In this document: in pieces, positions 20,421 through 46,926 of the stretch | Layout of the letters: the number at the start of each line of letters is the position of its first letter | Position numbering within the stretch: position 1 is the first letter of the stretch | Virus record (IMG/VR): IMGVR_UViG_3300035515_000158 | From: a virus | Lineage: Duplodnaviria > Heunggongvirae > Uroviricota > Caudoviricetes | DNA: 64,000 nucleotides | Direction: 5' to 3' (one strand) | Notes under the pieces: model-generated | Told to the model about the DNA's origin: nothing | The model's input: only the letters and a program-made list of their open reading frames with translations | Database searches by the model: none | Translations under genes and position numbers: made by a program

Positions 20421-21563
20421 TTACATCTCATTTATATAGTTATTTATGATTTCAATACATATATTTAAGTCATCAGAGAAGATTTCAAGATAGTTTAATT
20501 TATTTTTGTGAGCTATATTTCTTTTGGTCACATCTCTCATTGTCCAAGTCTTAATAGCCTCTTGATAAAATTTACTATCTTTCAATTTCCATGACTCAAC
20601 TATTATATTGTCATTTTCATCATCTTCATTATAAGGGTGTCCTCCATGTGTCCAATGTCCCTGAATTTCAATATATAAATCATAATCAGTTAAATAAAAG
20701 TCACAACAGAATGGATAAACATCAGATTTATATTGTATTCTGAAATTAATCTTATTATCTATTAGCCAATTACTTAAATCAACTTCTATTTTTGAACTGT
20801 TAAATGTATGGTTTTTCTTCTTTGTATTGTAAACTTTCATTTTACATTCATCAGTTTGAACATAATATCCACCATATTTCATTAACTGAGTATTTTCGAT
20901 ACGTGACTTAAATTCATCAGTTTTAGAATAATGTTCAACTCCATATTTTGAGATGTTACTTTGAATGTACTTTTCATGATTGCGGTATAAAATGTCACCA
21001 TATTTCTCCAACATGGTTTCAAGGTATTTGTCCATCACTATCTTAGACTCAAAACCAATTCCACCATATTTATTTATCATGGTTTCTTGTTGTTTTAACT
21101 TATTGTTGTAGTTTTTATCACCATGTATAAGTAAATTGGTTTGTTTCTGTTTCTTAATCTTATCGAGTTTTACGTCATCACTTTTGTTATTAAATGTCTG
21201 GGCTGATTTTATTGACCTTATTGAACAGTAATTTTCACCATATCTGTCAATATTGGTTTGTTTGTTTTTCTCTTTTACAACATCATCTTTACCAGCACAT
21301 TTACAACTACAATAAGTTAAATAACCAATATTAAGATTTCTATATTTACATTGACCTCCACATATTTTACATTTTCCCAGTGACCATTTTTCAATATCAT
21401 CATTAAGGTAGTGATATAATTTCTGACTGAATGTTATTATAGTATCACGATAAGTTATTTCAGAAATTAATAGATATGTTTGTGGAAATTTCTTCTTAAA
21501 TATATTTTCACAGATATATCTTTTATGGTTTAACAAGAAATCTTTTATCTCTGATTTTGTCAT
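20421..21563 (-). CDS. free-standing homing-type endonuclease (Zn-binding N-terminus, repeats, Vsr/PD-(D/E)xK-like C-terminus)
   Basis: CKICGG..C, CSCKC; KxKQTN..RYG repeats; CDFYL...IEIQGHWTHG; sits between terminase and neck genes. Confidence 0.75.
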   Translation of the reverse strand: MTKSEIKDFLLNHKRYICENIFKKKFPQTYLLISEITYRDTIITFSQKLYHYLNDDIEKWSLGKCKICGGQCKYRNLNIGYLTYCSCKCAGKDDVVKEKNKQTNIDRYGENYCSIRSIKSAQTFNNKSDDVKLDKIKKQKQTNLLIHGDKNYNNKLKQQETMINKYGGIGFESKIVMDKYLETMLEKYGDILYRNHEKYIQSNISKYGVEHYSKTDEFKSRIENTQLMKYGGYYVQTDECKMKVYNTKKKNHTFNSSKIEVDLSNWLIDNKINFRIQYKSDVYPFCCDFYLTDYDLYIEIQGHWTHGGHPYNEDDENDNIIVESWKLKDSKFYQEAIKTWTMRDVTKRNIAHKNKLNYLEIFSDDLNICIEIINNYINEM

Positions 21564-26199: not shown

Positions 26200-26311
26200 T
26201 TAATCTTGTTTCGTTTCTTTTAACTTTTTCTTTATTGAATTGAGTTGTTTCTTAAAGTCTTCAAATGGGATAGCTTTCCACTTTTTGAGAACCTTCTTGG
26301 AACCATCGTAT
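26200..26311 (-). pseudogene. 3' fragment of the gene interrupted by the TnpB element
   Basis: Reads YDGSKKVLKKWKAIPFEDFKKQLNSIKKKLKETKQD-TAA; in frame with the 27629-27870 fragment when the element is removed. Confidence 0.65.
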
Positions 26312-26460
26312 ATTAAAATCTGAACAAAATTAAACTTGTTCACTTTTAACTTCTTGTTTCAACCTACCACTACTTTTTAGGGGAATCACTTCCTTGTCAT
26401 CCATAGTTGGGTAGTCCACAAGCGTGAATTCGGTTGTACAGCAACCTATTATTCTTTGAC
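26292..26460 (-). ncRNA. predicted omegaRNA (scaffold overlapping tnpB 3' end plus flank-derived guide)
   Basis: Inferred from known TnpB architecture; boundaries approximate; guide would start near ATACGATGGTTCCAAGAAGG. Confidence 0.5.
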
Positions 26461-27571
26461 CTTCTTCTAAGATATTCAATGATGCATTATAGTCACGTTC
26501 TATAATAGAACCACAGTCTGGACAAATCCATTGTCTATCACTTAGTTTAAGTGACTTGTTTATATAACCACAATGATTACATCTTTTAGATGAAGGATAA
26601 AATCTATCAACGAAAACTAATCGTCTGTTATACCATATACTTTTATACTCTAATATTCTTCTAAACTCACTAAAGTTTAGTTCAGATATTGAATCAGAAA
26701 GTTTATGATTTTTAATCATTCCTTTTACATTTAAGTCCTCCATACAAATGACTTGGTTTTCATCAATCAATGAATTACTTACTTTATGTAAATAGTTTGA
26801 TTTACGATCAGTTATGGTTTTATATACTTTTGCAAGTTTCTTTCTTGCTTTGTTTCTGTTGTTAGAACCTTTAACTTTCTTAGAAAGTTGTCTTTGAAGT
26901 TTCTTTATCTTCTTATACTCAGATTTCTTAAAGTGTAGGTTTTCAAAAACCTCACCCTCTGAGGTGATAACGAAGTCTTTGACTCCAAGGTCAATACCAA
27001 CCATATTGTTTGTATCTTTAACTTTATGAATTAAACAACCATCAACTAAGATTGATAGGTAATATTCACCACATGGTAGTTTACTTAAAGTCGCAGACTT
27101 TATATTAGGTTTGTTATCCTGAAGGTATTTTGAGTATAACTTACTACATTTAAATTTGATATTCTTAATATTAGCAAGTGACAACTTATAAGATATGTAG
27201 TTATTTCTTCTTGAAATAGCTTCTACCGGAAATCTACAAGACAACTTATTATCATGTTTTGATTTAAATTTTGGATAGTCAGTATGTTGAGTAAAGAACC
27301 GTTTATAAGAATCTAACATATCCATTATAGATTGTTTAAGAACCTTAGTATTTTGTTCTTTCAACCAAATAAAGTCTGGATTATTAATCAAATCATGATG
27401 AAACCACTTACTAAGTGAAGTCCTATTTTCAGATTTCTTTTCTGTTTTATAAGATTCAATTTTACGAGCAAGACATTGATTATAAACAACACGACAACAT
27501 CCAAGAAGTTTATTGATTTGAACCTCTTGAGTCTTATTTGGGTATAATCTTATTTTAACTGCTCTGTACAT
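26330..27571 (-). CDS. tnpB: TnpB RNA-guided endonuclease
   Basis: KIRLYPN HTH start, GIDLG (RuvC-I D), MEDLN (RuvC-II E), CNHCG..CPDCG zinc finger, RDYNASLNI (RuvC-III D). Confidence 0.95.
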   Translation of the reverse strand: MYRAVKIRLYPNKTQEVQINKLLGCCRVVYNQCLARKIESYKTEKKSENRTSLSKWFHHDLINNPDFIWLKEQNTKVLKQSIMDMLDSYKRFFTQHTDYPKFKSKHDNKLSCRFPVEAISRRNNYISYKLSLANIKNIKFKCSKLYSKYLQDNKPNIKSATLSKLPCGEYYLSILVDGCLIHKVKDTNNMVGIDLGVKDFVITSEGEVFENLHFKKSEYKKIKKLQRQLSKKVKGSNNRNKARKKLAKVYKTITDRKSNYLHKVSNSLIDENQVICMEDLNVKGMIKNHKLSDSISELNFSEFRRILEYKSIWYNRRLVFVDRFYPSSKRCNHCGYINKSLKLSDRQWICPDCGSIIERDYNASLNILEEGQRIIGCCTTEFTLVDYPTMDDKEVIPLKSSGRLKQEVKSEQV

Positions 27572-27590
27572 CTATAAACTAAATATATAA

Positions 27591-27598
27591 TATTTATG
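27591..27598 (-). promoter_or_regulatory. phage late promoter motif inside the element left end
   Basis: CATAAATA 19 nt upstream of the tnpB ATG, similar spacing to structural genes. Confidence 0.65.
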
Positions 27599-27628
27599 AT
27601 AACATTTATAATAATGTTCAAAATTTTA

Positions 27629-27870
27629 ATCAACTATTGATAACCAGAACGATTACCTTTTTCATCTTCCATAACAAATCCATCATAGTCTACGGTATGA
27701 GTATGTGTTTCACTCTACCAACTTTGATCCATTGCTTCACATAAAGATGAGAAAAAGTATTTATAATCATAAGAATCTGGATTCAGTTTAGTAAGTACCT
27801 TTTCTACCTTTTCAAAATTACTATAATTAAATTCAAAGTAGAATTTAATTTTTTCGTCTGTTGTTTTCAT
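27629..27870 (-). pseudogene. 5' fragment of interrupted gene, with two in-frame TAG codons
   Basis: MKTTDEKIKF...DQSW*SETHTHTVDYDGFVMEDEKGNRSGYQ*LI; TAG at 27715-27717 and 27634-27636. Confidence 0.65.
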
Positions 27871-37542: not shown

Positions 37543-37574
37543 AAAGGAGAGGAAATTAATCCTCTCCTTTTTTT
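37543..37574. terminator. bidirectional terminator
   Basis: AAAGGAGAGG-loop-CCTCTCCTTT, same stem as 18815. Confidence 0.75.
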
Positions 37575-40500
37575 AGATTTTTTTCAATGTATATGTAAAT
37601 GCAAAGTCTTCACGATAACCATATTTCAGATAATATGTAATCTTTCTATTGAAATAATCACCATCCAATGTTTCAACTTTATATGTATTTACTTTTTCAA
37701 ATCCTTTTTTAATTAGATTTGCCTCTGTGTACCCAATATATGAAGTATAATTATTATTAATACTTTCATTATTGACATCTACTAATTTTGATCTAACCCA
37801 TAATGTAACAGTATCAACCATATAAAGATTAATAATATTTTTTTCGATATATTGTTTCTTAAAGTCCTCAAATAATTGAATTTTTTTACTTCCACTATAT
37901 TCACTTAGATAAACATCTTTTATATAGTTTAATGATTTATTTAATACTGGGTGTGTATTGAAATAACGGAATGTACGATTCTTCAGATATAAATAGAACT
38001 CTACTACTACATTATTCGTTTCTTTATAAACCATATCAACTGAACTATCTATACTATAATCTGTAGTATAAGACTTCCAAGATATGGCTTTGTTTAGTTT
38101 TTGAATATTAATTGTTAAAGGAGTTCCCATATATTTAGAACCAAACATACTCTTATCATCTTTTATACATTGAAGATTTCCGGATGTATCATAGCCACCA
38201 ATATTAGAGAATATATTATAATCTTCCATTCTAAGTGCAAAGTCACCGGACAATGGATTTCGACTTTTTGAACTTAGTAATTTTGAACTATTATACATAT
38301 GATAATATAGATTTTTAATAACACCAAACTCACCATAATCATCAGAATAATTCATATCAAAAGATGAATTTGTATATCTCATACTGTTATCAGTTGTTTG
38401 TATGTCATTATAAAAAATTATATCTTTCACAATAGGTTCATAATATCCATTATATCTATATACCGTTTGTATATATTGTTGACATTTATTAACAAGACTA
38501 ACTGTTTCATCATTCTCATCAACTTCACTTTCAAACAAATCTAATGTGTTAATTTTAGAAGGTTCTTGGACATAAATGTTAAAATCTATGTTTGTCTTAT
38601 CAGTTATGTTTGAAGATGATAAATATTCAATATTTGTACCTGTGTTTATATATTCTTTCAAATGATGACTTGAATATGTTTTATAGATATTAGATATTTC
38701 TTCATCATCAAAATTGTAATTATTTAAAGTATTACATATTTGTTTATATGATTTACACAATGTTTCAATATTATCATCACCATTAGTCTCATCATATTTA
38801 TACAATGCATCTAAATAATTTGGATCAATATAAACAACAAGTGACATATATATCTTTTGACCATCAACTAATTCAAAACTATCATCATTAACATATAAAC
38901 ACTCATTTGAATATGTCAAATCTTTTCTTGAATATGTCTTATCATTAAGGTGTAGTTCAATATTGTATAAGTTAAATGTATCTGACAATAGTTGTTCAAA
39001 TAAATCTCTCATGGATATTGAATTTATATACAAACCTTCTGTTGTTAGGTTAGTTATATATTTTTCACTATAAGAATCATATTCAGGATTTATAATACTC
39101 ACATATTGATTTAACAACATTGGATTCATGTAAAAATATAGATATCCATACCCATAAGTTTCTCCGATATTTTCATTTTTTTCAACAACATACTCATATC
39201 CCATCTTTTGTTCTGGTGTTATTTTTTCATCATCATCAGAAGTTACAACATTTACAGAACATAACACATTATTCATGATTTCATAAGTATTCACATTCAT
39301 CTTTTTATCTTTAGTGTAATATCCCTTATGATTCCATTTTATTTTCTTAAATGTTGAAATTTGTTTATCGGTTTTTCTAAAGTTACCATTAATCATGTTA
39401 TAGACATATGTCAAATTAAAAAGAATATCAGTTGGATTTATGATATTGGTGTTTCTGAACATCTTAGAATTATAAACATTCACAAATTGTAACCCACAAA
39501 TAAACTTACAGTTATCATTCTTCACAAAATAAACTTTGGTTGGAAATACATCATTTTTTGTATATAAAGGTATGAAAATATAAGAGAATTTATACCCATT
39601 ATATTTACCTGTGTAATTGTTCACATATACAGTCTTACCATTATTGTATTTCTTAACAGTTTCCTTTATGTCAAATCTCACACCTCTAAACATTGTATAT
39701 GCATTTGACATCGAATTACCACCACTAATAATTGAATATTTTTTATTAGTTCGTTTATTATCTTCAGACTCTACAAACATCTCATAAAAATCATCATCTG
39801 TAAAGTTTAGTAATTTATTCTTCCATTGTTCAATGTATTCATAAATGTCATCTGTTATGAAATCATTACCGACATGACCATAATCAATATACTGATAGAA
39901 CTCAGAATCAAAAGGATATACTATTTTTTCATACTTACCTTGTCTGTTTGTCATATATTTAGGAATAACATAATAAGGTAAACAATGTGTATATGAATTA
40001 ATGTCAGTGTCCAATGAGAAAGTATCAGATGAGAAATTTAATCTACCAAATACCTTGCTCATATTTAATCTGTATATATTTTCACAACTATCTCTACCTT
40101 CTCCAATATATCCCCATTTACTTATATATGGAACAGTTTTACTTACTGTACTTATTGTAGGAAGTGCATATTCAGTGAAGTAACTATATTCATTTGTCAA
40201 AGTAAGTCCGGATGAATTGATGAACTTATATAATGTTAAATTGTTCAGTGAAGTAACATTTGTGGTTTTGATGACTTCTGATATTTTTTTCCACGTTTTA
40301 TTAGTTGTGGTTGTATCTTCTGAATAAGTGGTTATATCATCAGATTGTATCTCAACATCAGAATCACCTGTATCCAATACCCAGTTAGTTACAGTATGCG
40401 GTAATTGTAAACGTTTCAAACTCAAATCTATTTCATCATTCAAAGATGTAGATTCACCATAAAAAGAATACAAAACATCAAAATCGAAATCTTTAACTGG

Positions 40501-43500
40501 GAAGAAATTCAACACGCCAATTTTAGGATAGTATCTTTCTCTTAGTTCGATTTTTTTTAAGTCATTAATGTAGATATACTTACCATTTGAATCTGTTGAC
40601 ATCACACTATAATCAGGAGATACAACACCATCTTTGACATAAGGAACAATCGACAAAATACGAGCATATTCATTATCTTTATATGTTCTAATGAAACGTT
40701 CCTCACCATTACCATGTGTTATAATATCAATGTCTGAATTAGGTACTAAGAACATAGTATCCATATTATCATTACCACCAGTAAAGGTATATGTGTAATT
40801 ATCGGCATCAGATTTTGAATATCTGTTACCAATTACAGTGATTATATTTTGGTAGATATAAGTTCCATCAAATATAACTTCAATTTTTTTACCATATCCA
40901 ACATTACCATTATATCTGGAACCATGATACTTATATCTAAATACAACCATTCCCTTAGAATTGTAATATGCATCTATATAGTAATCATCACCAACATAAG
41001 AATTAACAGCTTCACAAATCGCATGGGCTATTTGGGACACATCACCATTACTACTGAAAAAGACATAGTTATCAGTTTCATGTATAGTTCCAGCGGTCAT
41101 AATGGTTTTATCAGGGAAATATTTATCCACACTTCCTTGATAAGTTCCGGTATAATTATTACTGTCTATAATTTCTTCACGAGCAACCAGTTTAAGTTCA
41201 AATTCAGTATTGGGTGTATCTCCTGACATATCACTTATTCTGATACGAATCATTGTTGCATTGTGAGGATTCTTATTTACTATGAAACCAAAAGAAGCAT
41301 ACCCATATTCATTAAGATATTGACAACCTGCGGAAACATATTCAGTCTTATATCCAAACATTTTTTCATTACCCACTGAATTAAATACATCAGTTGGATC
41401 CACATAGTTAAAATATGTTTTCTGAATACTACTATCTGAAATGTGTCTATAACTTACCTTTGGAAAATTATATGTATCATTTAAGTAACTATTAATCAAA
41501 ACTTGTGCCTTATCAAATGTATTCTTATTGAAAGATATCACATTTGAATATAAAGTTTCTCTTGTGTGAGGTAACTTATATAATGTGTTATACTTATCCT
41601 TAGCATAGAACACAGACTGACCATCAGAATAGAAGATATTATTTTTGTTGTTTATATCTTGTATTTTAACAATTTGTGAAGTTTTTTTCTTTCCTTCATC
41701 CACCATATCTTTACTCTCATATAGAAGTCCAAAATTAGATGTAACTTTTGGTTTATATGAAAATGTCTTTATATCTTCTTGTTTATCATATATGTTTTCA
41801 TACAAGTCGACAGTATTACAGAACATTCCATAATATCTACAGAACTTGTAATTATCATCCGCATCATCAAATAAGAACTCAAGATTTAATATGTATGGAT
41901 AAACAAGTCCATTTTTTTCATACCCGGTTGTGATATAGTCATCCATACGGGTAATTGTATTGTCCGCATTTATTAGGTTATCCTCAAAATCAACTACTTT
42001 CTGAGTTAACACACCAGTTGATAAGTCAATTCCATAATAATATATTTGTTTATTATCAAAATTGACATACATTGGTTGGTCAAAATTAAACCCAGATTGA
42101 CTAATATAATTTCTAATATATTGACCTAATACACTATTTTCACTTATATCAAAATTCTTTACAATACTTGACTTCTGTAAAATATCATACTCATAGTCTT
42201 CAAGAAGTGAAATATTATTATCACCATTAATATAAACATAGTAATCATCGGGTTCATATGCATCATTAGAAATTCTTGTATAATATGTAATAAGGTCTTC
42301 AGATTGTTTTATCAACCCCAAAATACCATCTTTTTTACCATACTTATTTATCGTATAATTAGATAACCTCTTTGAAAATAAGTTATAATAATTTACCCTT
42401 TCTTCTATTGAGTATTGATTTTTGAAACAAGTATATGCCCATTGAACAGAAGGATTTTCGAGGTCTAAATCCTTGTTATACATCTTTTGTGATAAAATGT
42501 AAATATCAGTAGCTAAAATAACACTATTTTCGACTAATTTTTCGACTAATTTTTCTAAATTAGCTTTTTTTGAGACCTTCCCTCCATTCTTAATATTACA
42601 ATATCTACTTTTGAGTTTATAAATATGTTTCTTCTTTTGTGATATTCTTTTTTGTAGAGCGATATCATTTTTGAAGGTATTAACAGGACTTACATACTTA
42701 TTTCTCTTATATATTTTTTCATATTCATCAAATTTTATAATGTTTTTATATAAATCTTTTATTTTGGTGTTATCATGACTTGATAAATAATAGTCTATTG
42801 TAATATATGTTGAAATAATAGATTTTAATACATCTTCATATTGTGTCTTTAATGTTTGATATTGGGTTTTTGTTATATACGAGTTTTTATAATTACTTTG
42901 TTCATTTAATCTATATTCATAAAATGATATACCTGTTCTTGTTGGTGTTTCAAAATCATCATACCCACTTGTGTAATTTTTTATTAATTTACTATTATCA
43001 CAAACTTGAAGTGTATACCAGTCATAATCATTATCATATTGAACAAGACTTATTACATCATTGTAATAATAATTATAAACATCATATATTTTAGTATCAA
43101 ATAAACCAACAGTATTATTAACTTTATCAATTTCATAACATTTATTACCATAACTATTATATAATCCATTATCTGTGTCTAATGATGTATCTTTTAAATA
43201 TAATAATTGTTCATTAATATATACACTATCAAACTCATCTTCAATCTTATTTATTTTATCGATGTCTTCGATATCTATATACATATCTATATCTTTAGTA
43301 TTAACTTTGACAAAAGTTGATCTTATAATATAGTATCCTGAAGGTTTCACTGTTTGTCCGTTATTAATACTTTCTAAATCATAATACTTATTATCATAGT
43401 AATAACCAGAAACTTCAAATTTATTTGAAGTTGAATTATATGTTATAACCATTTGTATATCATTAACTACTTTATCAAGTATGATATAAAAATTATTATT

Positions 43501-46500
43501 ATATTCAAATCCGGATCGAGTTTCACACATATATACTTGTTGTGTGGTTGAATATTTATACAAAGCATTATAACTCTTTAATCTTGTTTGATATAATGGA
43601 TTATGAGTATTTGTACTACTATATATACAATATCCTTTTACGAGAGTATTGTATGTTGTATAAAAATAACCTAATATATCTGAATTACCCGTAGATGTAT
43701 TTTTTTTGAATGAATATACAGGTATGTATACATTATTTGTTGAAAGGTTTTCCTTATTAAAATAATAATGATATGTTGATGAATATATATCGTTATATTT
43801 AAAATTTATAAGATATTGATCATCATTTTTAATAACATCTACATAACTTGTTTTATCTTCATCAACTCGTATTTTACTTGGATAAAAAGGTAATAGATAC
43901 CCCTCATCACATACATATGTCCTTTTAACATCTTCTACTTTTGTCACATCTATATAATTATATATACCATCATCAATGACTGTATATATACAATTAGTAT
44001 TAAGTTTATATATTTGAATACCATTATATACAATATATCCATCTTCATCTGATGTATATGTTATTTTATTATCTGTATTAAAATTAATATTAAAAGTAGA
44101 TATTTTATAAGTTGAGTCACGACCGTATACTAAATTGATAATTTCATTGTTATATAAAAACGCACAAGTTAGGTTAGGGAGTACATGACTATTAGATGGT
44201 CGTTTAGGCCTATAAGTATAAGTTTTACCATAAATAACATCACCATTTTGTAAAATCATTATTGCATTTTTATAATAGTTATCATAAAGAGAATCTTCAT
44301 ACTCTACGATATATACATTTCTATCACTATTTGTTAAAATCTTTGAAACATCAGATAAAAATATATAACAGATATTATCATCAATTTTACATATCTTGTG
44401 TTTTGTATAAAAATACGCAATACTTGGTTCCCATTGTGAACCAACAGATTTGTTTGTTTCGTATTCAGATGCCATACAAGGTTCCTCATCTATATAGTAT
44501 ATTTTATTATTATCTATATAAAATTCATCTGGTGTTACTGTGTTAAATTCATCATATACACTTTTACCTGTAGATATGGTGTTTACTGTGTTATCACTAT
44601 TATATGTGATGGTATATTCAATTTCATTATATATGAATTTATCACTATAATTAGATTGTATAATATCAAGACACAAAGTAGTCTTATAAAAATGATAGTA
44701 GCCTTCATCAAAATATGTTCTTAATAGACATAATTCATTTTTAATATTTCTTACTTCACTGTTATTAATATTATACACATATTGTATGTTATATATTGTA
44801 GGTTTTGTCTCACTATCATCTGTATCACCATCAATAAACCACCATACGATATCACTTATTTTTAGATAACTAAAACCACTTTCTTCACCCTTTATTTTTT
44901 TGTATTCAATTCCATCAATCTTTACATTAAATTGTCTAGTTACATCATCAAAATACTCATATGTTTTTTTAATATCACCATTATATATATTTTCAAAAAT
45001 ATATGTATCAGTATCACCTTTTGTACTTTCAATATATTCTGATGAATCTAGTAATACATAAGTATCTTCAGGTGTATTTTTAACATTTGATGTTATTAGT
45101 GATAAATTAGTATCATATAAGTAATTATCCCATACAAAATATTCAGTATCATTTCCATATCCATCATGAAACACATATTTTCCTAATTTAGATATATAAT
45201 CATAATATTTAGAATATAATATCATTTCATTATTATATATCATATAATCACTATTTAAATAATATATATATTGATTATTATAATCATATACACCATATGT
45301 TTTAATTTTTTCTGAATCATCTATGGTAATATAGTTTTCACTTGTATTTCTCTTACCAATTAATTCATAAACAAAATATATTGTACCATTGTTATAGTAA
45401 AATGATGTTTCTTCCAATGTGTTTTTTAATGGATATACATCACCATCATCTACTATCAAGTTATAGTTATCATTATCTAATTTATTTATATAATATGTTT
45501 TATCATTAAACTCAAAAGAATTTGATGATAGTTCACCACATGATGTCACACGATAATAATATTTGGTAGAGTTATCATTAGATGAAGTCATAAGTATATT
45601 AATAACACCATCAACATTTTCACCTTGTCCATCTGTATTAATGATAGAAAAAATATTATAAATATTATCTTTATCATCTATATAATATACAACATTGTCA
45701 TCATTATCTTTAATTATATTTCCTTCAATAGTGTATACAGTTGAACCATCAAAACTTTTTACCAATCGGTTTGAGTTAAAATCATCAATATATTTACTTA
45801 ATCCTGCGGATAAGTGTGTTATTGTCTGAACAGAATCTGTTGTTTCGGTTATTTCCGATATTTTAACCAAATCATAATACACATTAGACTTGATATCACT
45901 GTTATAATATTCTTCATCATCATTTGTATGATATGTATTAATTCTATATCCATCACTGTCAAATATATCACTATTAACTATATAGTCATTACTTTCAGAA
46001 TACTTATAATGTTCATAAGGTCTAATATCCAAATTATAACCATATTGTTTTACTAATGTTGAATTTTTATCAGTAAGGTCATATGATGTATAATCACTCT
46101 GACTTAATTTGGATTCAAGTTCTTTCTGACATTCTTCATAAAAATCTTTTGAATAATCAGTGTTAGCAATACCAAAATATTTTTCTATCTCACTTTCCTC
46201 ATAGACACTATCAGAAAATGTTGTATTATTAGTAGAGTTATCCCCATTATTGGATTGTTCATCATCAACACCAAGAAGCATAATACTATCTTTCTTAAAT
46301 AGTCCGGTTGTTTCATCAATTAATTTATATTTCAAGAATTCTGAATTTAATGTTGATTTCAAATCGGTAAAAGCTGTCAAACTACCTAATTTAATATTAG
46401 TGTCATTCAATAAAGTAAAGTTCTTTTTGAAGAAACTGTTCTCATCATGGATACCGGATAGTAAACTTCCTGCTGTGTTATCACTGTCTACGATTTTAAA

Positions 46501-46926
46501 AATTACGAAATTTGTAGGTAACTTTTCTTTTAGATACAATGGTGCAATACAACCATATTCTTGGTCATATAATTCAGAAATAATGGGTTCTACACCACAC
46601 CAATAAGTATTTTCATATATATTATCTACATTATTACAAGTAGTTGTATCTAATGACTTATGATATGTTTTATATATAGAACTTACCGTACCAGACCAGA
46701 AATCTTTAATGTCTTGGTTAAACAATCCATTACTTGACACTTTCTTGTGTTTATAATCTAATGTACTCAGATTAGTATCAGCATTATAAGATTCTAAATA
46801 AATATTATCACCATCATACATTAGTTTCACATTTGTTGTTAATACAGGATTAGTTCTGATTAATGAGAAACTAACATTATCATCTAATTTGGTATAAGTG
46901 TTGTTACCACCTAAAACTTTTTTCAT
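37573..46926 (-). CDS. giant 3117-aa late protein, probable virion component
   Basis: Uninterrupted ORF, late motif at 46957; Tyr/Asn/Asp-rich; no recognisable enzyme motif. Confidence 0.8.
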   Translation of the reverse strand: MKKVLGGNNTYTKLDDNVSFSLIRTNPVLTTNVKLMYDGDNIYLESYNADTNLSTLDYKHKKVSSNGLFNQDIKDFWSGTVSSIYKTYHKSLDTTTCNNVDNIYENTYWCGVEPIISELYDQEYGCIAPLYLKEKLPTNFVIFKIVDSDNTAGSLLSGIHDENSFFKKNFTLLNDTNIKLGSLTAFTDLKSTLNSEFLKYKLIDETTGLFKKDSIMLLGVDDEQSNNGDNSTNNTTFSDSVYEESEIEKYFGIANTDYSKDFYEECQKELESKLSQSDYTSYDLTDKNSTLVKQYGYNLDIRPYEHYKYSESNDYIVNSDIFDSDGYRINTYHTNDDEEYYNSDIKSNVYYDLVKISEITETTDSVQTITHLSAGLSKYIDDFNSNRLVKSFDGSTVYTIEGNIIKDNDDNVVYYIDDKDNIYNIFSIINTDGQGENVDGVINILMTSSNDNSTKYYYRVTSCGELSSNSFEFNDKTYYINKLDNDNYNLIVDDGDVYPLKNTLEETSFYYNNGTIYFVYELIGKRNTSENYITIDDSEKIKTYGVYDYNNQYIYYLNSDYMIYNNEMILYSKYYDYISKLGKYVFHDGYGNDTEYFVWDNYLYDTNLSLITSNVKNTPEDTYVLLDSSEYIESTKGDTDTYIFENIYNGDIKKTYEYFDDVTRQFNVKIDGIEYKKIKGEESGFSYLKISDIVWWFIDGDTDDSETKPTIYNIQYVYNINNSEVRNIKNELCLLRTYFDEGYYHFYKTTLCLDIIQSNYSDKFIYNEIEYTITYNSDNTVNTISTGKSVYDEFNTVTPDEFYIDNNKIYYIDEEPCMASEYETNKSVGSQWEPSIAYFYTKHKICKIDDNICYIFLSDVSKILTNSDRNVYIVEYEDSLYDNYYKNAIMILQNGDVIYGKTYTYRPKRPSNSHVLPNLTCAFLYNNEIINLVYGRDSTYKISTFNINFNTDNKITYTSDEDGYIVYNGIQIYKLNTNCIYTVIDDGIYNYIDVTKVEDVKRTYVCDEGYLLPFYPSKIRVDEDKTSYVDVIKNDDQYLINFKYNDIYSSTYHYYFNKENLSTNNVYIPVYSFKKNTSTGNSDILGYFYTTYNTLVKGYCIYSSTNTHNPLYQTRLKSYNALYKYSTTQQVYMCETRSGFEYNNNFYIILDKVVNDIQMVITYNSTSNKFEVSGYYYDNKYYDLESINNGQTVKPSGYYIIRSTFVKVNTKDIDMYIDIEDIDKINKIEDEFDSVYINEQLLYLKDTSLDTDNGLYNSYGNKCYEIDKVNNTVGLFDTKIYDVYNYYYNDVISLVQYDNDYDWYTLQVCDNSKLIKNYTSGYDDFETPTRTGISFYEYRLNEQSNYKNSYITKTQYQTLKTQYEDVLKSIISTYITIDYYLSSHDNTKIKDLYKNIIKFDEYEKIYKRNKYVSPVNTFKNDIALQKRISQKKKHIYKLKSRYCNIKNGGKVSKKANLEKLVEKLVENSVILATDIYILSQKMYNKDLDLENPSVQWAYTCFKNQYSIEERVNYYNLFSKRLSNYTINKYGKKDGILGLIKQSEDLITYYTRISNDAYEPDDYYVYINGDNNISLLEDYEYDILQKSSIVKNFDISENSVLGQYIRNYISQSGFNFDQPMYVNFDNKQIYYYGIDLSTGVLTQKVVDFEDNLINADNTITRMDDYITTGYEKNGLVYPYILNLEFLFDDADDNYKFCRYYGMFCNTVDLYENIYDKQEDIKTFSYKPKVTSNFGLLYESKDMVDEGKKKTSQIVKIQDINNKNNIFYSDGQSVFYAKDKYNTLYKLPHTRETLYSNVISFNKNTFDKAQVLINSYLNDTYNFPKVSYRHISDSSIQKTYFNYVDPTDVFNSVGNEKMFGYKTEYVSAGCQYLNEYGYASFGFIVNKNPHNATMIRIRISDMSGDTPNTEFELKLVAREEIIDSNNYTGTYQGSVDKYFPDKTIMTAGTIHETDNYVFFSSNGDVSQIAHAICEAVNSYVGDDYYIDAYYNSKGMVVFRYKYHGSRYNGNVGYGKKIEVIFDGTYIYQNIITVIGNRYSKSDADNYTYTFTGGNDNMDTMFLVPNSDIDIITHGNGEERFIRTYKDNEYARILSIVPYVKDGVVSPDYSVMSTDSNGKYIYINDLKKIELRERYYPKIGVLNFFPVKDFDFDVLYSFYGESTSLNDEIDLSLKRLQLPHTVTNWVLDTGDSDVEIQSDDITTYSEDTTTTNKTWKKISEVIKTTNVTSLNNLTLYKFINSSGLTLTNEYSYFTEYALPTISTVSKTVPYISKWGYIGEGRDSCENIYRLNMSKVFGRLNFSSDTFSLDTDINSYTHCLPYYVIPKYMTNRQGKYEKIVYPFDSEFYQYIDYGHVGNDFITDDIYEYIEQWKNKLLNFTDDDFYEMFVESEDNKRTNKKYSIISGGNSMSNAYTMFRGVRFDIKETVKKYNNGKTVYVNNYTGKYNGYKFSYIFIPLYTKNDVFPTKVYFVKNDNCKFICGLQFVNVYNSKMFRNTNIINPTDILFNLTYVYNMINGNFRKTDKQISTFKKIKWNHKGYYTKDKKMNVNTYEIMNNVLCSVNVVTSDDDEKITPEQKMGYEYVVEKNENIGETYGYGYLYFYMNPMLLNQYVSIINPEYDSYSEKYITNLTTEGLYINSISMRDLFEQLLSDTFNLYNIELHLNDKTYSRKDLTYSNECLYVNDDSFELVDGQKIYMSLVVYIDPNYLDALYKYDETNGDDNIETLCKSYKQICNTLNNYNFDDEEISNIYKTYSSHHLKEYINTGTNIEYLSSSNITDKTNIDFNIYVQEPSKINTLDLFESEVDENDETVSLVNKCQQYIQTVYRYNGYYEPIVKDIIFYNDIQTTDNSMRYTNSSFDMNYSDDYGEFGVIKNLYYHMYNSSKLLSSKSRNPLSGDFALRMEDYNIFSNIGGYDTSGNLQCIKDDKSMFGSKYMGTPLTINIQKLNKAISWKSYTTDYSIDSSVDMVYKETNNVVVEFYLYLKNRTFRYFNTHPVLNKSLNYIKDVYLSEYSGSKKIQLFEDFKKQYIEKNIINLYMVDTVTLWVRSKLVDVNNESINNNYTSYIGYTEANLIKKGFEKVNTYKVETLDGDYFNRKITYYLKYGYREDFAFTYTLKKI

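What the first reader, a model, noticed from the sequence alone, without database searches (positions are those of the whole stretch)
26200..27870. TnpB-only element wired to the phage late promoter, inserted in a reconstructable gene
Seen: intact-looking TnpB (three RuvC acidic residues, zinc finger), no TnpA, only about 57 bp of left end, and that left end contains CATAAATA 19 nt before the ATG, the motif found before terminase and structural genes. The left flank ends in TTGAT. Joining 27629 to 26311 restores one 117-codon frame ending ...KKLKETKQD-TAA, which fixes the junctions to about 2 nt. Known: TTGAT is the ISDra2 TnpB TAM, and omegaRNA guides derive from the right flank. Inference: it cuts the empty allele (TTGAT|ATACGATGGTTCC) of co-infecting relatives late in infection, i.e. 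an RNA-guided homing endonuclease adapted to the phage transcription programme.
Basis: partly seen in the sequence, partly recalled or inferred. Interest (0 to 1): 0.78.

Follow-up and report, generated by a model that had tools for sequence, protein, structure and literature searches.

The report
Transposase-less IS607 TnpB element in phage
A large gut phage carries an intact RNA-guided nuclease (TnpB) element that has lost its transposase, sits behind the phage's own structural-gene promoter motif and appears to have arrived by recombination.

Summary

**Ends and family**
- Thirteen insertions at other sites put its ends at 27643 and 26308 (1,336 bp, minus strand).
- The closest autonomous relative has 92% TnpB identity and lies on a 352-kb contig. 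It carries an IS607-type serine transposase between the same left end and tnpB.
- All ten left junctions that I could read follow GG. The window copy is therefore a TnpA-less IS607 derivative.
- TTGAT lies inside the left end, not in the flank.

**Host gene**
- The nearest relative phage (G001) has this gene intact at 135 aa.
- The window lacks 73 nt of it, including a conserved block of about 24 residues, so excision does not restore the gene.

**What holds**
- CATAAATA plus TATA is a promoter-like motif of the structural-gene class: 14 of 58 genes, including terminase.
- It is part of this subfamily's left end.
- TnpB is under purifying selection (dN/dS 0.11-0.16).
- The omegaRNA scaffold shows covariation.
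- G001's vacant allele reads TCTGG followed by a perfect match to the guide region.
- A 74-nt tract beside the left end has 12 substitutions, against about 0.5% elsewhere. This is a recombination footprint.

RNA-guided homing between co-infecting phages is plausible but not shown. This scan has noted TnpA-less TnpB elements in large phages before.

The parts
26308..27643 (-). Whole element, 1,336 bp: left end, tnpB, omegaRNA scaffold, right end. A TnpA-less derivative of an IS607-type transposon.
   Evidence: Eleven further insertions stop aligning with the window at 26304-26309 on the right, and four reach 27638-27645 on the left. Printed junctions show unrelated flanks beyond GG|TTATC on the left and beyond ...ATATAC on the right.
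27572..27643 (-). Left end (72 nt). It starts TTATCAATAGTTGATT directly after a flank GG, and contains the internal TTGAT at 27633-27629.
   Evidence: The same left end sits after unrelated flanks in L018/L201 and L197/L198. It lies upstream of orf53-tnpA in the autonomous copy L196.
27583..27598 (-). Promoter-like motif CATAAATA-N3-TATAT of the structural-gene class, 19 nt before the tnpB ATG.
   Evidence: The motif is also present in the left ends of L196 and L197/L198.
26330..27571 (-). tnpB, 413 aa, with intact RuvC triad and zinc ribbon.
   Evidence: dN/dS is 0.11-0.16 against six other copies.
26308..26446 (-). omegaRNA (reRNA) scaffold. It overlaps the 3' end of tnpB and ends at the right end.
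   Evidence: The consensus fold has 39 pairs, 9 with compensatory changes, across 10 copies. The mini-element L082 keeps just this part plus 34 nt of left end.
26288..26307 (-). Presumed guide region, the first ~20 nt of right flank (GATGGTTCCAAGAAGG...). The exact first guide base is uncertain by 1-2 nt.
   Evidence: The position follows from the TnpB/omegaRNA architecture (PMC10711439, read). G001 is identical here, and the match is preceded by TCTGG.
27644..27870 (-). 5' fragment of the interrupted 135-aa-type gene, with an in-frame TAG at 27717-27715.
   Evidence: Aligns with residues 1-77 of the G001, P0001 and P0002 proteins.
27646..27717 (-). Divergent tract beside the left end: 12 differences from G001 within 74 nt. 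Read as a recombination (co-conversion) footprint.
   Evidence: The next difference to the left is 530 nt away. The right flank has none for 445 nt.
26200..26307 (-). 3' fragment of the interrupted gene (DGSKKVLKKW...KQD, then TAA).
   Evidence: 100% identical to G001.

Best explanation
Bases 27643-26308 (minus strand) are a non-autonomous derivative of an IS607-family transposon living in a large phage with a T4-type terminase. It keeps the left end, tnpB, the omegaRNA scaffold and the right end, but has lost the serine transposase.

**Shown**
- The ends of the element.
- The family link through an autonomous relative.
- The rule that insertions follow GG.
- Purifying selection on TnpB.
- A covarying omegaRNA fold.
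- A promoter-like motif of the phage's structural-gene class inside the left end.
- A vacant allele in the closest relative, whose sequence after TCTGG is identical to the window's right flank.
- A highly divergent 74-nt tract beside the left end.

**Inferred**
- tnpB and its omegaRNA are transcribed from the CATAAATA promoter together with the structural genes.
- The ribonucleoprotein cuts vacant alleles of the 135-aa gene in co-infecting relatives, next to a GG-ending motif.
- Recombinational repair then copies in the element together with neighbouring DNA.
- The missing 73 nt are best explained by slippage. In a filled G001-type allele, TCAGGTTAT in the gene and TCTGG+TTAT at the junction form an 8-of-9 direct repeat 73 nt apart.
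For: - **Domains and catalytic residues:**
- **Ends:**
- **Autonomous relative L196:** its TnpB is 92% identical. A 205-aa gene overlapping the tnpB start scores 190.7 bits on NCBIfam transpos_IS607 (cut-off 110) and matches Pfam MerR plus Resolvase. It lies between a homologous left end and tnpB.
- **GG rule:** GG directly precedes the left end at 10 of 10 readable junctions. This matches the published IS607 rule (PMC13565253 section 5.2; PMC10711439).
- **omegaRNA:** 39 pairs, 9 compensatory.
- **Selection:** dN/dS 0.11-0.16.
- **Promoter class:**
- **Vacant allele and missing 73 nt:**
- **Divergent tract:**
[quoted passage not shown] Homing into co-infecting phages is proposed on theoretical grounds (PMC13565253).
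Against: - No cleavage, TAM or transcript-end data exist for this element.
- The TAM is inferred only from left flanks (GG-ending).
- The first guide base is uncertain. Right flanks read NNT in 13 of 13 insertions and NGT in 9 of 13, which a simple insert-after-GG model does not explain.
- 'Most IS607 members end in GG' is met at only 2 right junctions.
- The TnpB protein scores higher on the IS200-type NCBIfam model than on the IS607-type one.
- Only one vacant allele of this gene is close enough to compare base by base.
- In both vacant/filled pairs found, the element replaces target DNA (73 nt here, 1,027 nt in L197 against L205). Clean homing does not predict this.
- The divergent tract shows recombination, not that TnpB triggered it.
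Confidence: 0.6

Rival explanations
1. Passive passenger. The element is an IS607 remnant that moves between phages only through ordinary phage recombination, or through a transposase supplied in trans by autonomous copies. TnpB does not cut the vacant allele of this gene, for example because the 73-nt deletion or a junction change put the guide out of register with the TAM.
For: - In 2 of 2 vacant/filled pairs the element sits beside a deletion of target DNA.
- The right junction lacks the GG expected of a GG-crossover product.
- Autonomous copies exist in related phages.
- No read or contig shows a joint across the element.
Against: - TnpB is under purifying selection across copies.
- The omegaRNA fold is maintained by compensatory changes.
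- The vacant allele keeps a GG-ending motif directly before a perfect guide match.
Confidence: 0.27
2. Weapon rather than homing device. The phage benefits because the late-expressed nuclease destroys genomes of co-infecting relatives that carry the intact gene. This would be interference competition, as described for a phage intron endonuclease, with copying of the element only a by-product.
For: - The nuclease is intact and sits behind a phage-class promoter.
- The closest relative carries a perfect target.
- A precedent for endonuclease-mediated competition between phages is cited in PMC13565253.
Against: - The 74-nt imported tract shows the element itself spreads by recombination.
- There is no evidence of benefit to the phage.
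- The element has inactivated a phage gene.
Confidence: 0.08
3. One reading: an ISDra2-like IS200/IS605 element with TAM TTGAT, whose left end starts at 27628 and whose empty allele is TTGAT|ATACGATGGTTCC.
For: - The TnpB protein is most similar to ISDra2 TnpB among solved structures.
- It scores best on the IS200-type NCBIfam model, though below the cut-off.
- A TTGAT-like word is kept at the same place in several copies.
Against: - TTGAT and the 10 nt before it are part of the element at unrelated sites.
- ATAC belongs to the right end in all copies.
- The vacant allele reads ...ATCTGG|GATGG....
- The transposase found within these ends is a serine recombinase. No Y1 transposase was seen next to any of the 12 close copies.
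Confidence: 0.05

Closest known systems
IS607-family transposons with TnpB and right-end RNA, e.g. ISXfa1 of Xylella fastidiosa (PMC10711439)
   Same: - A serine transposase (HTH plus resolvase domain) overlaps tnpB in the autonomous relative.
- Insertion is directly after GG.
- There are no inverted ends and no target duplication.
- A ~140-nt RNA scaffold covers the tnpB 3' end and runs into the flank.
- G001's vacant site also reads GGG directly before ATGGTTCC. This would fit ISXfa1's GGG TAM if the first flank base belongs to the scaffold.
   Different: - The window copy has no transposase.
- The right junction is not GG.
- The TnpB protein is closer to the ISDra2 type than to the NCBIfam IS607_TnpB model.
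- It lives in a phage and carries a phage promoter motif in its left end.
ISDra2 / IS608-type IS200/IS605 elements (Y1 TnpA, TnpB, omegaRNA; TAM TTGAT for ISDra2)
   Same: - TnpB sequence and domain layout.
- omegaRNA overlapping the 3' end.
- The general logic of a guide taken from the right flank.
   Different: - No Y1 transposase in any close copy.
- TTGAT is internal.
- The target is GG, not a 4-5-nt motif before the left end.
Free-standing homing endonuclease genes of T4-like phages (seg and mob genes) and their co-conversion tracts
   Same: - It sits in a phage with a T4-type terminase and a TATAAATA-like motif before structural genes.
- It is present or absent between close relatives.
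- A short, highly divergent tract abuts the insert.
   Different: - Recognition would be by guide RNA, not by protein.
- The insert interrupts a gene instead of lying between genes.
TnpA-less TnpB elements noted earlier in this scan in large gut phages (e1-1842022, e1-1694896)
   Same: Transposase-less TnpB plus guide-RNA scaffold, at different places in related phages, some of IS607 type.
   Different: Here a vacant allele, an imported flank tract and a phage-class promoter inside the left end are documented.

Membership tests
TnpB (OMEGA RNA-guided nuclease) | HTH, RuvC (OrfB_IS605) and zinc-ribbon TNB domains | tested here: met
   Pfam E-values are 1e-17, 4e-24 and 2e-22. NCBIfam guided_TnpB scores 301 bits against a cut-off of 100.
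TnpB (OMEGA RNA-guided nuclease) | RuvC D-E-D triad and CxxC...CxxC retained | tested here: met
   In the alignment to ISDra2 TnpB 8EXA, GIDLG, MEDLN and ERDYNA line up with GVDVG, TEHL and DRDENA, and CNHC...CPDC is present. The residue roles come from my knowledge of ISDra2.
TnpB (OMEGA RNA-guided nuclease) | Conserved structured RNA over the gene's 3' end, ending at the right end | tested here: met
   39 pairs, 9 with compensatory changes, in 10 copies. There is no Rfam family match.
TnpB (OMEGA RNA-guided nuclease) | Guide-matched, TAM-flanked target in the vacant allele, and its cleavage | tested here: inconclusive
   G001 has a perfect match preceded by TCTGG. TAM identity and cleavage cannot be tested with these tools.
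IS607 family | Serine-recombinase TnpA (N-terminal HTH, resolvase catalytic domain) within the same ends | tested here: inconclusive
   It is absent from the window copy. It is present in the autonomous relative L196 between a homologous left end and tnpB: transpos_IS607 scores 190.7 bits against a cut-off of 110.
IS607 family | Integration into or directly after a GG dinucleotide | tested here: met
   GG precedes the left end at 10 of 10 readable junctions. The rule is as stated in PMC13565253.
IS607 family | No terminal inverted repeats and no target-site duplication | tested here: met
   The window junctions TCTGG|TTATC and ATATAC|GATGG share no repeat. The ends are not inverted copies of each other.
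IS607 family | Element ends in GG, or GG at the right junction | tested here: not met
   After ...ATATAC the 13 insertions read TG (7), GG (2), TT (2), TA (1), and GA in the window.
IS200/IS605 family (ISDra2-like) | Y1 (HUH) TnpA in autonomous members | tested here: not met
   None lies next to any of the 12 close copies. The only transposase found is a serine recombinase.
IS200/IS605 family (ISDra2-like) | Short target or TAM (TTGAT) immediately 5' of the left end | tested here: not met
   TTGAT lies 10 nt inside the shared left end.
T4-type late promoter | TATAAATA-like element shortly upstream of late (structural) genes, absent from replication genes | tested here: met
   CATAAATA precedes 14 of 58 genes, including terminase and an adaptor-like gene. 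Replication genes carry TTTGTTATCTTTA instead. The T4 consensus is from my own knowledge.
T4-type late promoter | Transcription starts there late in infection | not testable with these tools
   The RNA runs are held only as contigs, which cannot show transcript starts or timing.
Homing element | Presence/absence between close relatives, with a co-converted flank | tested here: met
   G001 lacks the element. There are 12 differences in the 74 nt beside the left end against about 0.5% elsewhere.

The most novel reading that the evidence does not exclude
A lineage of IS607-type TnpB elements has become a phage-specific, RNA-guided homing element. It has dispensed with its transposase and carries the resident phage's late-class promoter in its left end. 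It spreads between co-infecting huge phages through guide-directed cuts at vacant alleles, dragging neighbouring DNA with it, and the 74-nt imported tract is such a footprint. This would be the first natural case of 'non-restorative' TnpB homing between viruses, which the literature so far treats as theoretical.
Probability: 0.35. Interest if true: 0.65.

Novelty: new member of a known kind. Interest (0 to 1): 0.5.

Why it matters
TnpB nucleases are the ancestors of Cas12, and in bacteria they have been shown to keep their transposon in place by cutting vacated sites. A 2026 review lists the same trick between co-infecting phages only as a theoretical possibility (PMC13565253).

This locus provides the pieces needed for a direct test:
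- an intact nuclease and guide scaffold;
- a natural vacant target in a 98-99% identical phage;
- a promoter of the phage's own structural-gene class;
- a recombination footprint beside the element.

It also shows that a protein of the ISDra2 type can sit in an IS607-type element. A TAM therefore should not be guessed from protein similarity alone.

Tried and rejected
- **Rfam and tRNA scans:** Rfam at gathering thresholds gave no family for the RNA. No tRNA or suppressor tRNA lies in the window.
- **Metagenome scans:** Both scans for more alleles of the interrupted gene found nothing.
- **Wasted viral scan:** A 14-nt right-junction pattern was too short and returned only chance matches.
- **Other vacant sites:**
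  - None was found for the L196 insertion.
  - G001 does not hold the flanks of L019 or L020.
  - For the Lak-A1 copy, the two flanks lie about 12 kb apart and inverted in Lak-B genomes, so there is no clean vacant site.
- **Sequencing runs:** All holders had small shares. Laying four of them gave no joint across the element and no contig spanning it. This says nothing about absence.
- **Replacement C-terminus:** Here the read-through into the left end is 28 unrelated residues, and only if TAG is read as sense, so I rejected it.
- **TAG recoding:** Not supported for this window. Under the standard code, 45 genes end in TAA, 10 in TGA and 2 in TAG, one of them TAG directly followed by TAA.
- **Site of the insertion:** I first read it as an insertion at GGTTAT|GAT with a 69-nt deletion to the right. 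I dropped this once L018 and L197 showed that TTAT belongs to the element and L196 showed the IS607 link.
- **Does the left-end promoter track each host phage?** I found no enriched upstream motif in the second phage group, which gave too little sequence.
Full report
**What is in the window**

On the minus strand, a 656-aa ClpB-like ATPase gene (29882-27912) comes first. A small ORF follows, starting at 27870, and then a 413-aa ORF (27571-26330). After that come a short open frame ending at 26200, a 135-aa ORF and an SbcC-like gene.

The 413-aa protein is a TnpB:
- It matches Pfam HTH_OrfB_IS605, OrfB_IS605 and the Cas12f1-like TNB zinc ribbon.
- It passes NCBIfam guided_TnpB.
- It aligns over its whole length with ISDra2 TnpB, with the RuvC acidic positions and both CxxC pairs in place.
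- Against six other copies its dN/dS is 0.11-0.16, so the protein is under selection.

**Where the element begins and ends**

I collected thirteen insertions of the same subfamily at other sites. They come from Lak-A1, IMG/VR contigs and JGI contigs.
- Eleven of them stop aligning with the window at 26304-26309. All thirteen end in ...TTTTAA(T/C)ATAC with unrelated sequence beyond. The right end is therefore 26308.
- On the left, L018/L201 and L197/L198 share TTATCAATAG(T/G)TGATTAAAATTTTGA with the window and then diverge directly upstream of a GG.
- The element is therefore 27643-26308, 1,336 bp.

**Which family**

The closest full copy, L196, lies on a 352-kb JGI contig, and its TnpB is 92% identical to the window's. 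Its layout is a homologous left end, a 53-aa ORF, a 205-aa gene that overlaps the tnpB start, tnpB, and the same right end.
- The 205-aa protein has MerR-type HTH and Resolvase domains.
- It scores 190.7 bits on the NCBIfam equivalog transpos_IS607, whose cut-off is 110.
- At all ten left junctions that can be read, the flank ends in GG. This is the published IS607 rule (PMC13565253; PMC10711439).
- L203 is a separate deletion derivative that still keeps about the last 20 nt of tnpA before tnpB.

The window copy is therefore a TnpA-less IS607 derivative. Two features do not fit the textbook picture:
- The right junction is GG in only two insertions: TG 7, GG 2, TT 2, TA 1, and GA in the window. 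The third flank base is T in 13 of 13.
- The TnpB protein scores higher on the IS200-type NCBIfam model (364.7 bits, below its 425 cut-off) than on the IS607-type model (161 bits).

**The guide RNA**

The last ~140 nt of the element are the most conserved part at the DNA level. RNAalifold gives 39 pairs, 9 of them kept through changes on both sides. One example is GGTTG/CAACC, which becomes GGGTG/CACCC in Lak-A1 and GGTAG/CTACC in L016.

A 200-nt mini-element, L082, keeps only 34 nt of left end plus this region. This is the expected omegaRNA (reRNA) scaffold. The guide would be the flank from 26307 downward.

**The interrupted gene and the vacant allele**

The nearest record held, G001 (IMG/VR UViG 3300043081_000051), matches the window at 98-99% on both sides but has no TnpB. 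There the gene is intact at 135 aa. Two further homologues of 129 and 126 aa exist.

All three share a block (G001: DYYRTKYNYIVIELTKNYTDFIW) that the window lacks. At the DNA level:
- G001 reads ...CGT TCA GGT TAT GAT ... TTT ATC TGG GAT GGT TCC...
- The window reads ...CGT TCT GG|element|GAT GGT TCC....

The right flank therefore abuts ATCTGG in the vacant allele, and 73 nt are missing on the left.

The simplest history has two steps:
1. Insertion after the GG of ATCTGG.
2. Slippage between TCAGGTTAT in the gene and TCTGG+TTAT at the junction. These form an 8-of-9 direct repeat, 73 nt apart, that the insertion itself created.

The alternative is insertion at the upstream GG followed by a deletion to the right. 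It gives the same sequence but has no repeat to explain it.

It reads through two TAG codons, and five of its codons come from the element.

**Is the vacant allele a target?**

G001 is identical to the window for 445 nt from the right junction. The five bases before the match are TCTGG, the same as the window's own left flank.

ISXfa1, the one IS607 TnpB I found characterised, uses a GGG TAM and counts the first flank base as scaffold (PMC10711439). Read that way, G001 reads GGG followed by ATGGTTCC, which also fits. This is suggestive only, because the TAM of this subfamily has not been measured.

**A recombination footprint**

Window and G001 differ at 12 positions within the 74 nt next to the left end. 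There is then no difference for another 450 nt. On the right there is none for 445 nt.

The dead gene's other parts are unchanged, so this is not decay. It is a tract imported from a more distant allele together with the element, as in co-conversion around homing endonuclease genes. The in-frame TAG at 27717-27715 lies at the far end of this tract. Homologues have Q, H or Y at that position.

The window itself shows no sign of TAG recoding: 45 TAA, 10 TGA and 2 TAG stops. The TAG is therefore either a nonsense change in a dead gene, or it came from a donor that reads TAG as a residue. Lak phages, which I recall read TAG as glutamine, carry TnpB paralogues with 8 and 17 in-frame TAGs.

**A second pair**

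L197 (filled) and L205 (vacant) match at 99.6% and 98.1% in the flanks. However, the element replaces 1,027 nt of a 498-aa gene in a tandem array of paralogues. In both pairs the element sits beside lost target DNA. That is unexplained. It may reflect recombinase-mediated adjacent deletion, or slippage at G-rich junction repeats.

**The promoter claim**

- CATAAATA occurs 18 times against 10.5 expected.
- The motif is upstream of 14 of 58 genes, where under 1 is expected, 19-31 nt before the start codon on the gene's own strand and usually followed by TATA(A/T) three bases later.
- These genes include terminase large subunit, an adaptor-like protein, a tape-measure-like protein and a 3,117-aa protein.
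- Replication genes (clamp loader, ClpB-like ATPase, topoisomerase II) instead carry TTTGTTATCTTTA.
- The terminase is of the T4 type, and the motif differs by one base from the T4 late promoter TATAAATA (my own knowledge).
- The motif is part of the left end in the window, in L197/L198, and in the autonomous L196, where it precedes orf53-tnpA. G001 uses it before its terminase.

The element therefore does carry the resident phage's structural-gene-class promoter motif. Timing and the transcription start are not shown. Copies in another phage group lack the motif, but I could not define that group's own promoter.

**RNA data**

Only contigs were available. Two gut metatranscriptome runs hold pieces of the phage and of other copies of the element, with no joint across it.

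**Comparison with the literature and verdict**

- TnpB-guided cutting of vacated sites is established for IS605-type elements (abstracts of PMC10055086 and PMC10690162).
- TnpB is reported to process its own mRNA into omegaRNA (title and abstract of PMC10278001).
- Homing into co-infecting phages is listed as a theoretical case (PMC13565253).
- TnpB genes are said to be common in phages (PMC12607003).
- This scan has already noted TnpA-less copies in large phages.

This locus is therefore a new, unusually informative member of a known kind.

Noticed in passing
window, upstream of e.g. 29882, 30969, 53561, 26107, 31036: A second promoter-like motif, TTTGTTAT(C/G)TTTA, precedes about 16 genes. 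Most are replication-type genes (clamp loader, ClpB-like ATPase, topoisomerase II). It is distinct from the CATAAATA class and points to two transcription classes.
   Followed up: partly
window 20421-21563 (-): A 380-aa ORF with a weak PHROG match to a homing endonuclease sits between terminase and the adaptor-like gene. A CATAAATA motif lies inside its 3' end, in front of the next gene.
   Followed up: no
window 27715-27717 and 27634-27636: There are two in-frame TAGs. The first lies at the far end of the 74-nt divergent tract, where homologues have Q, H or Y. The second is element sequence (AATAGTTGAT is conserved in other copies), so it is not a codon of the host gene. Under the standard code the window has 45 TAA, 10 TGA and 2 TAG stops.
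   Followed up: partly
L007 and L008 (Prevotella phage Lak-A1, MK250015.1 around 474 kb and 170 kb): Two further TnpB paralogues (49% identity) have 8 and 17 in-frame TAG codons. This suggests long residence in a phage that, as I recall, reads TAG as glutamine. The 75%-identical Lak-A1 copy has one.
   Followed up: no
L082:1439-1641 (IMGVR_UViG_3300035498_000654): A mini-element of about 200 nt has 34 nt of left end joined to the last 148 nt (the omegaRNA scaffold) and no tnpB. It is preceded by AATATAC, which resembles a right-end terminus. The same 82.7-kb contig holds four full copies.
   Followed up: partly
L197:1429-2762 against L205:7250-8276: In a related phage the same element subfamily replaces 1,027 nt of a 498-aa gene. 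That gene belongs to a tandem array of four ~500-aa paralogues. This is the second case of target DNA missing beside the element.
   Followed up: partly
L006 / Lak-A1 292-294 kb: The Lak-A1 copy is flanked by an 11-nt direct repeat (TGTTATTTAAT). In Lak-B genomes its two flanks lie about 12 kb apart in opposite orientation, so the element sits at a rearrangement breakpoint.
   Followed up: partly
window 26306-26613, run X9 (gut metatranscriptome): One RNA-library contig from a 95%-identical copy covers the omegaRNA region at depth 30, against about 4 nearby. It runs straight into Illumina adapter two bases past the right end. This could mark a defined RNA end, but contigs cannot prove it.
   Followed up: no
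L203:1100-1200: An independent TnpA-less derivative: left end, then about the last 20 nt of tnpA, then tnpB. It shows that transposase loss happened more than once in this lineage.
   Followed up: partly
window 37573-46926 (-): A single 3,117-aa ORF sits behind a CATAAATA motif. It was not examined.
   Followed up: no
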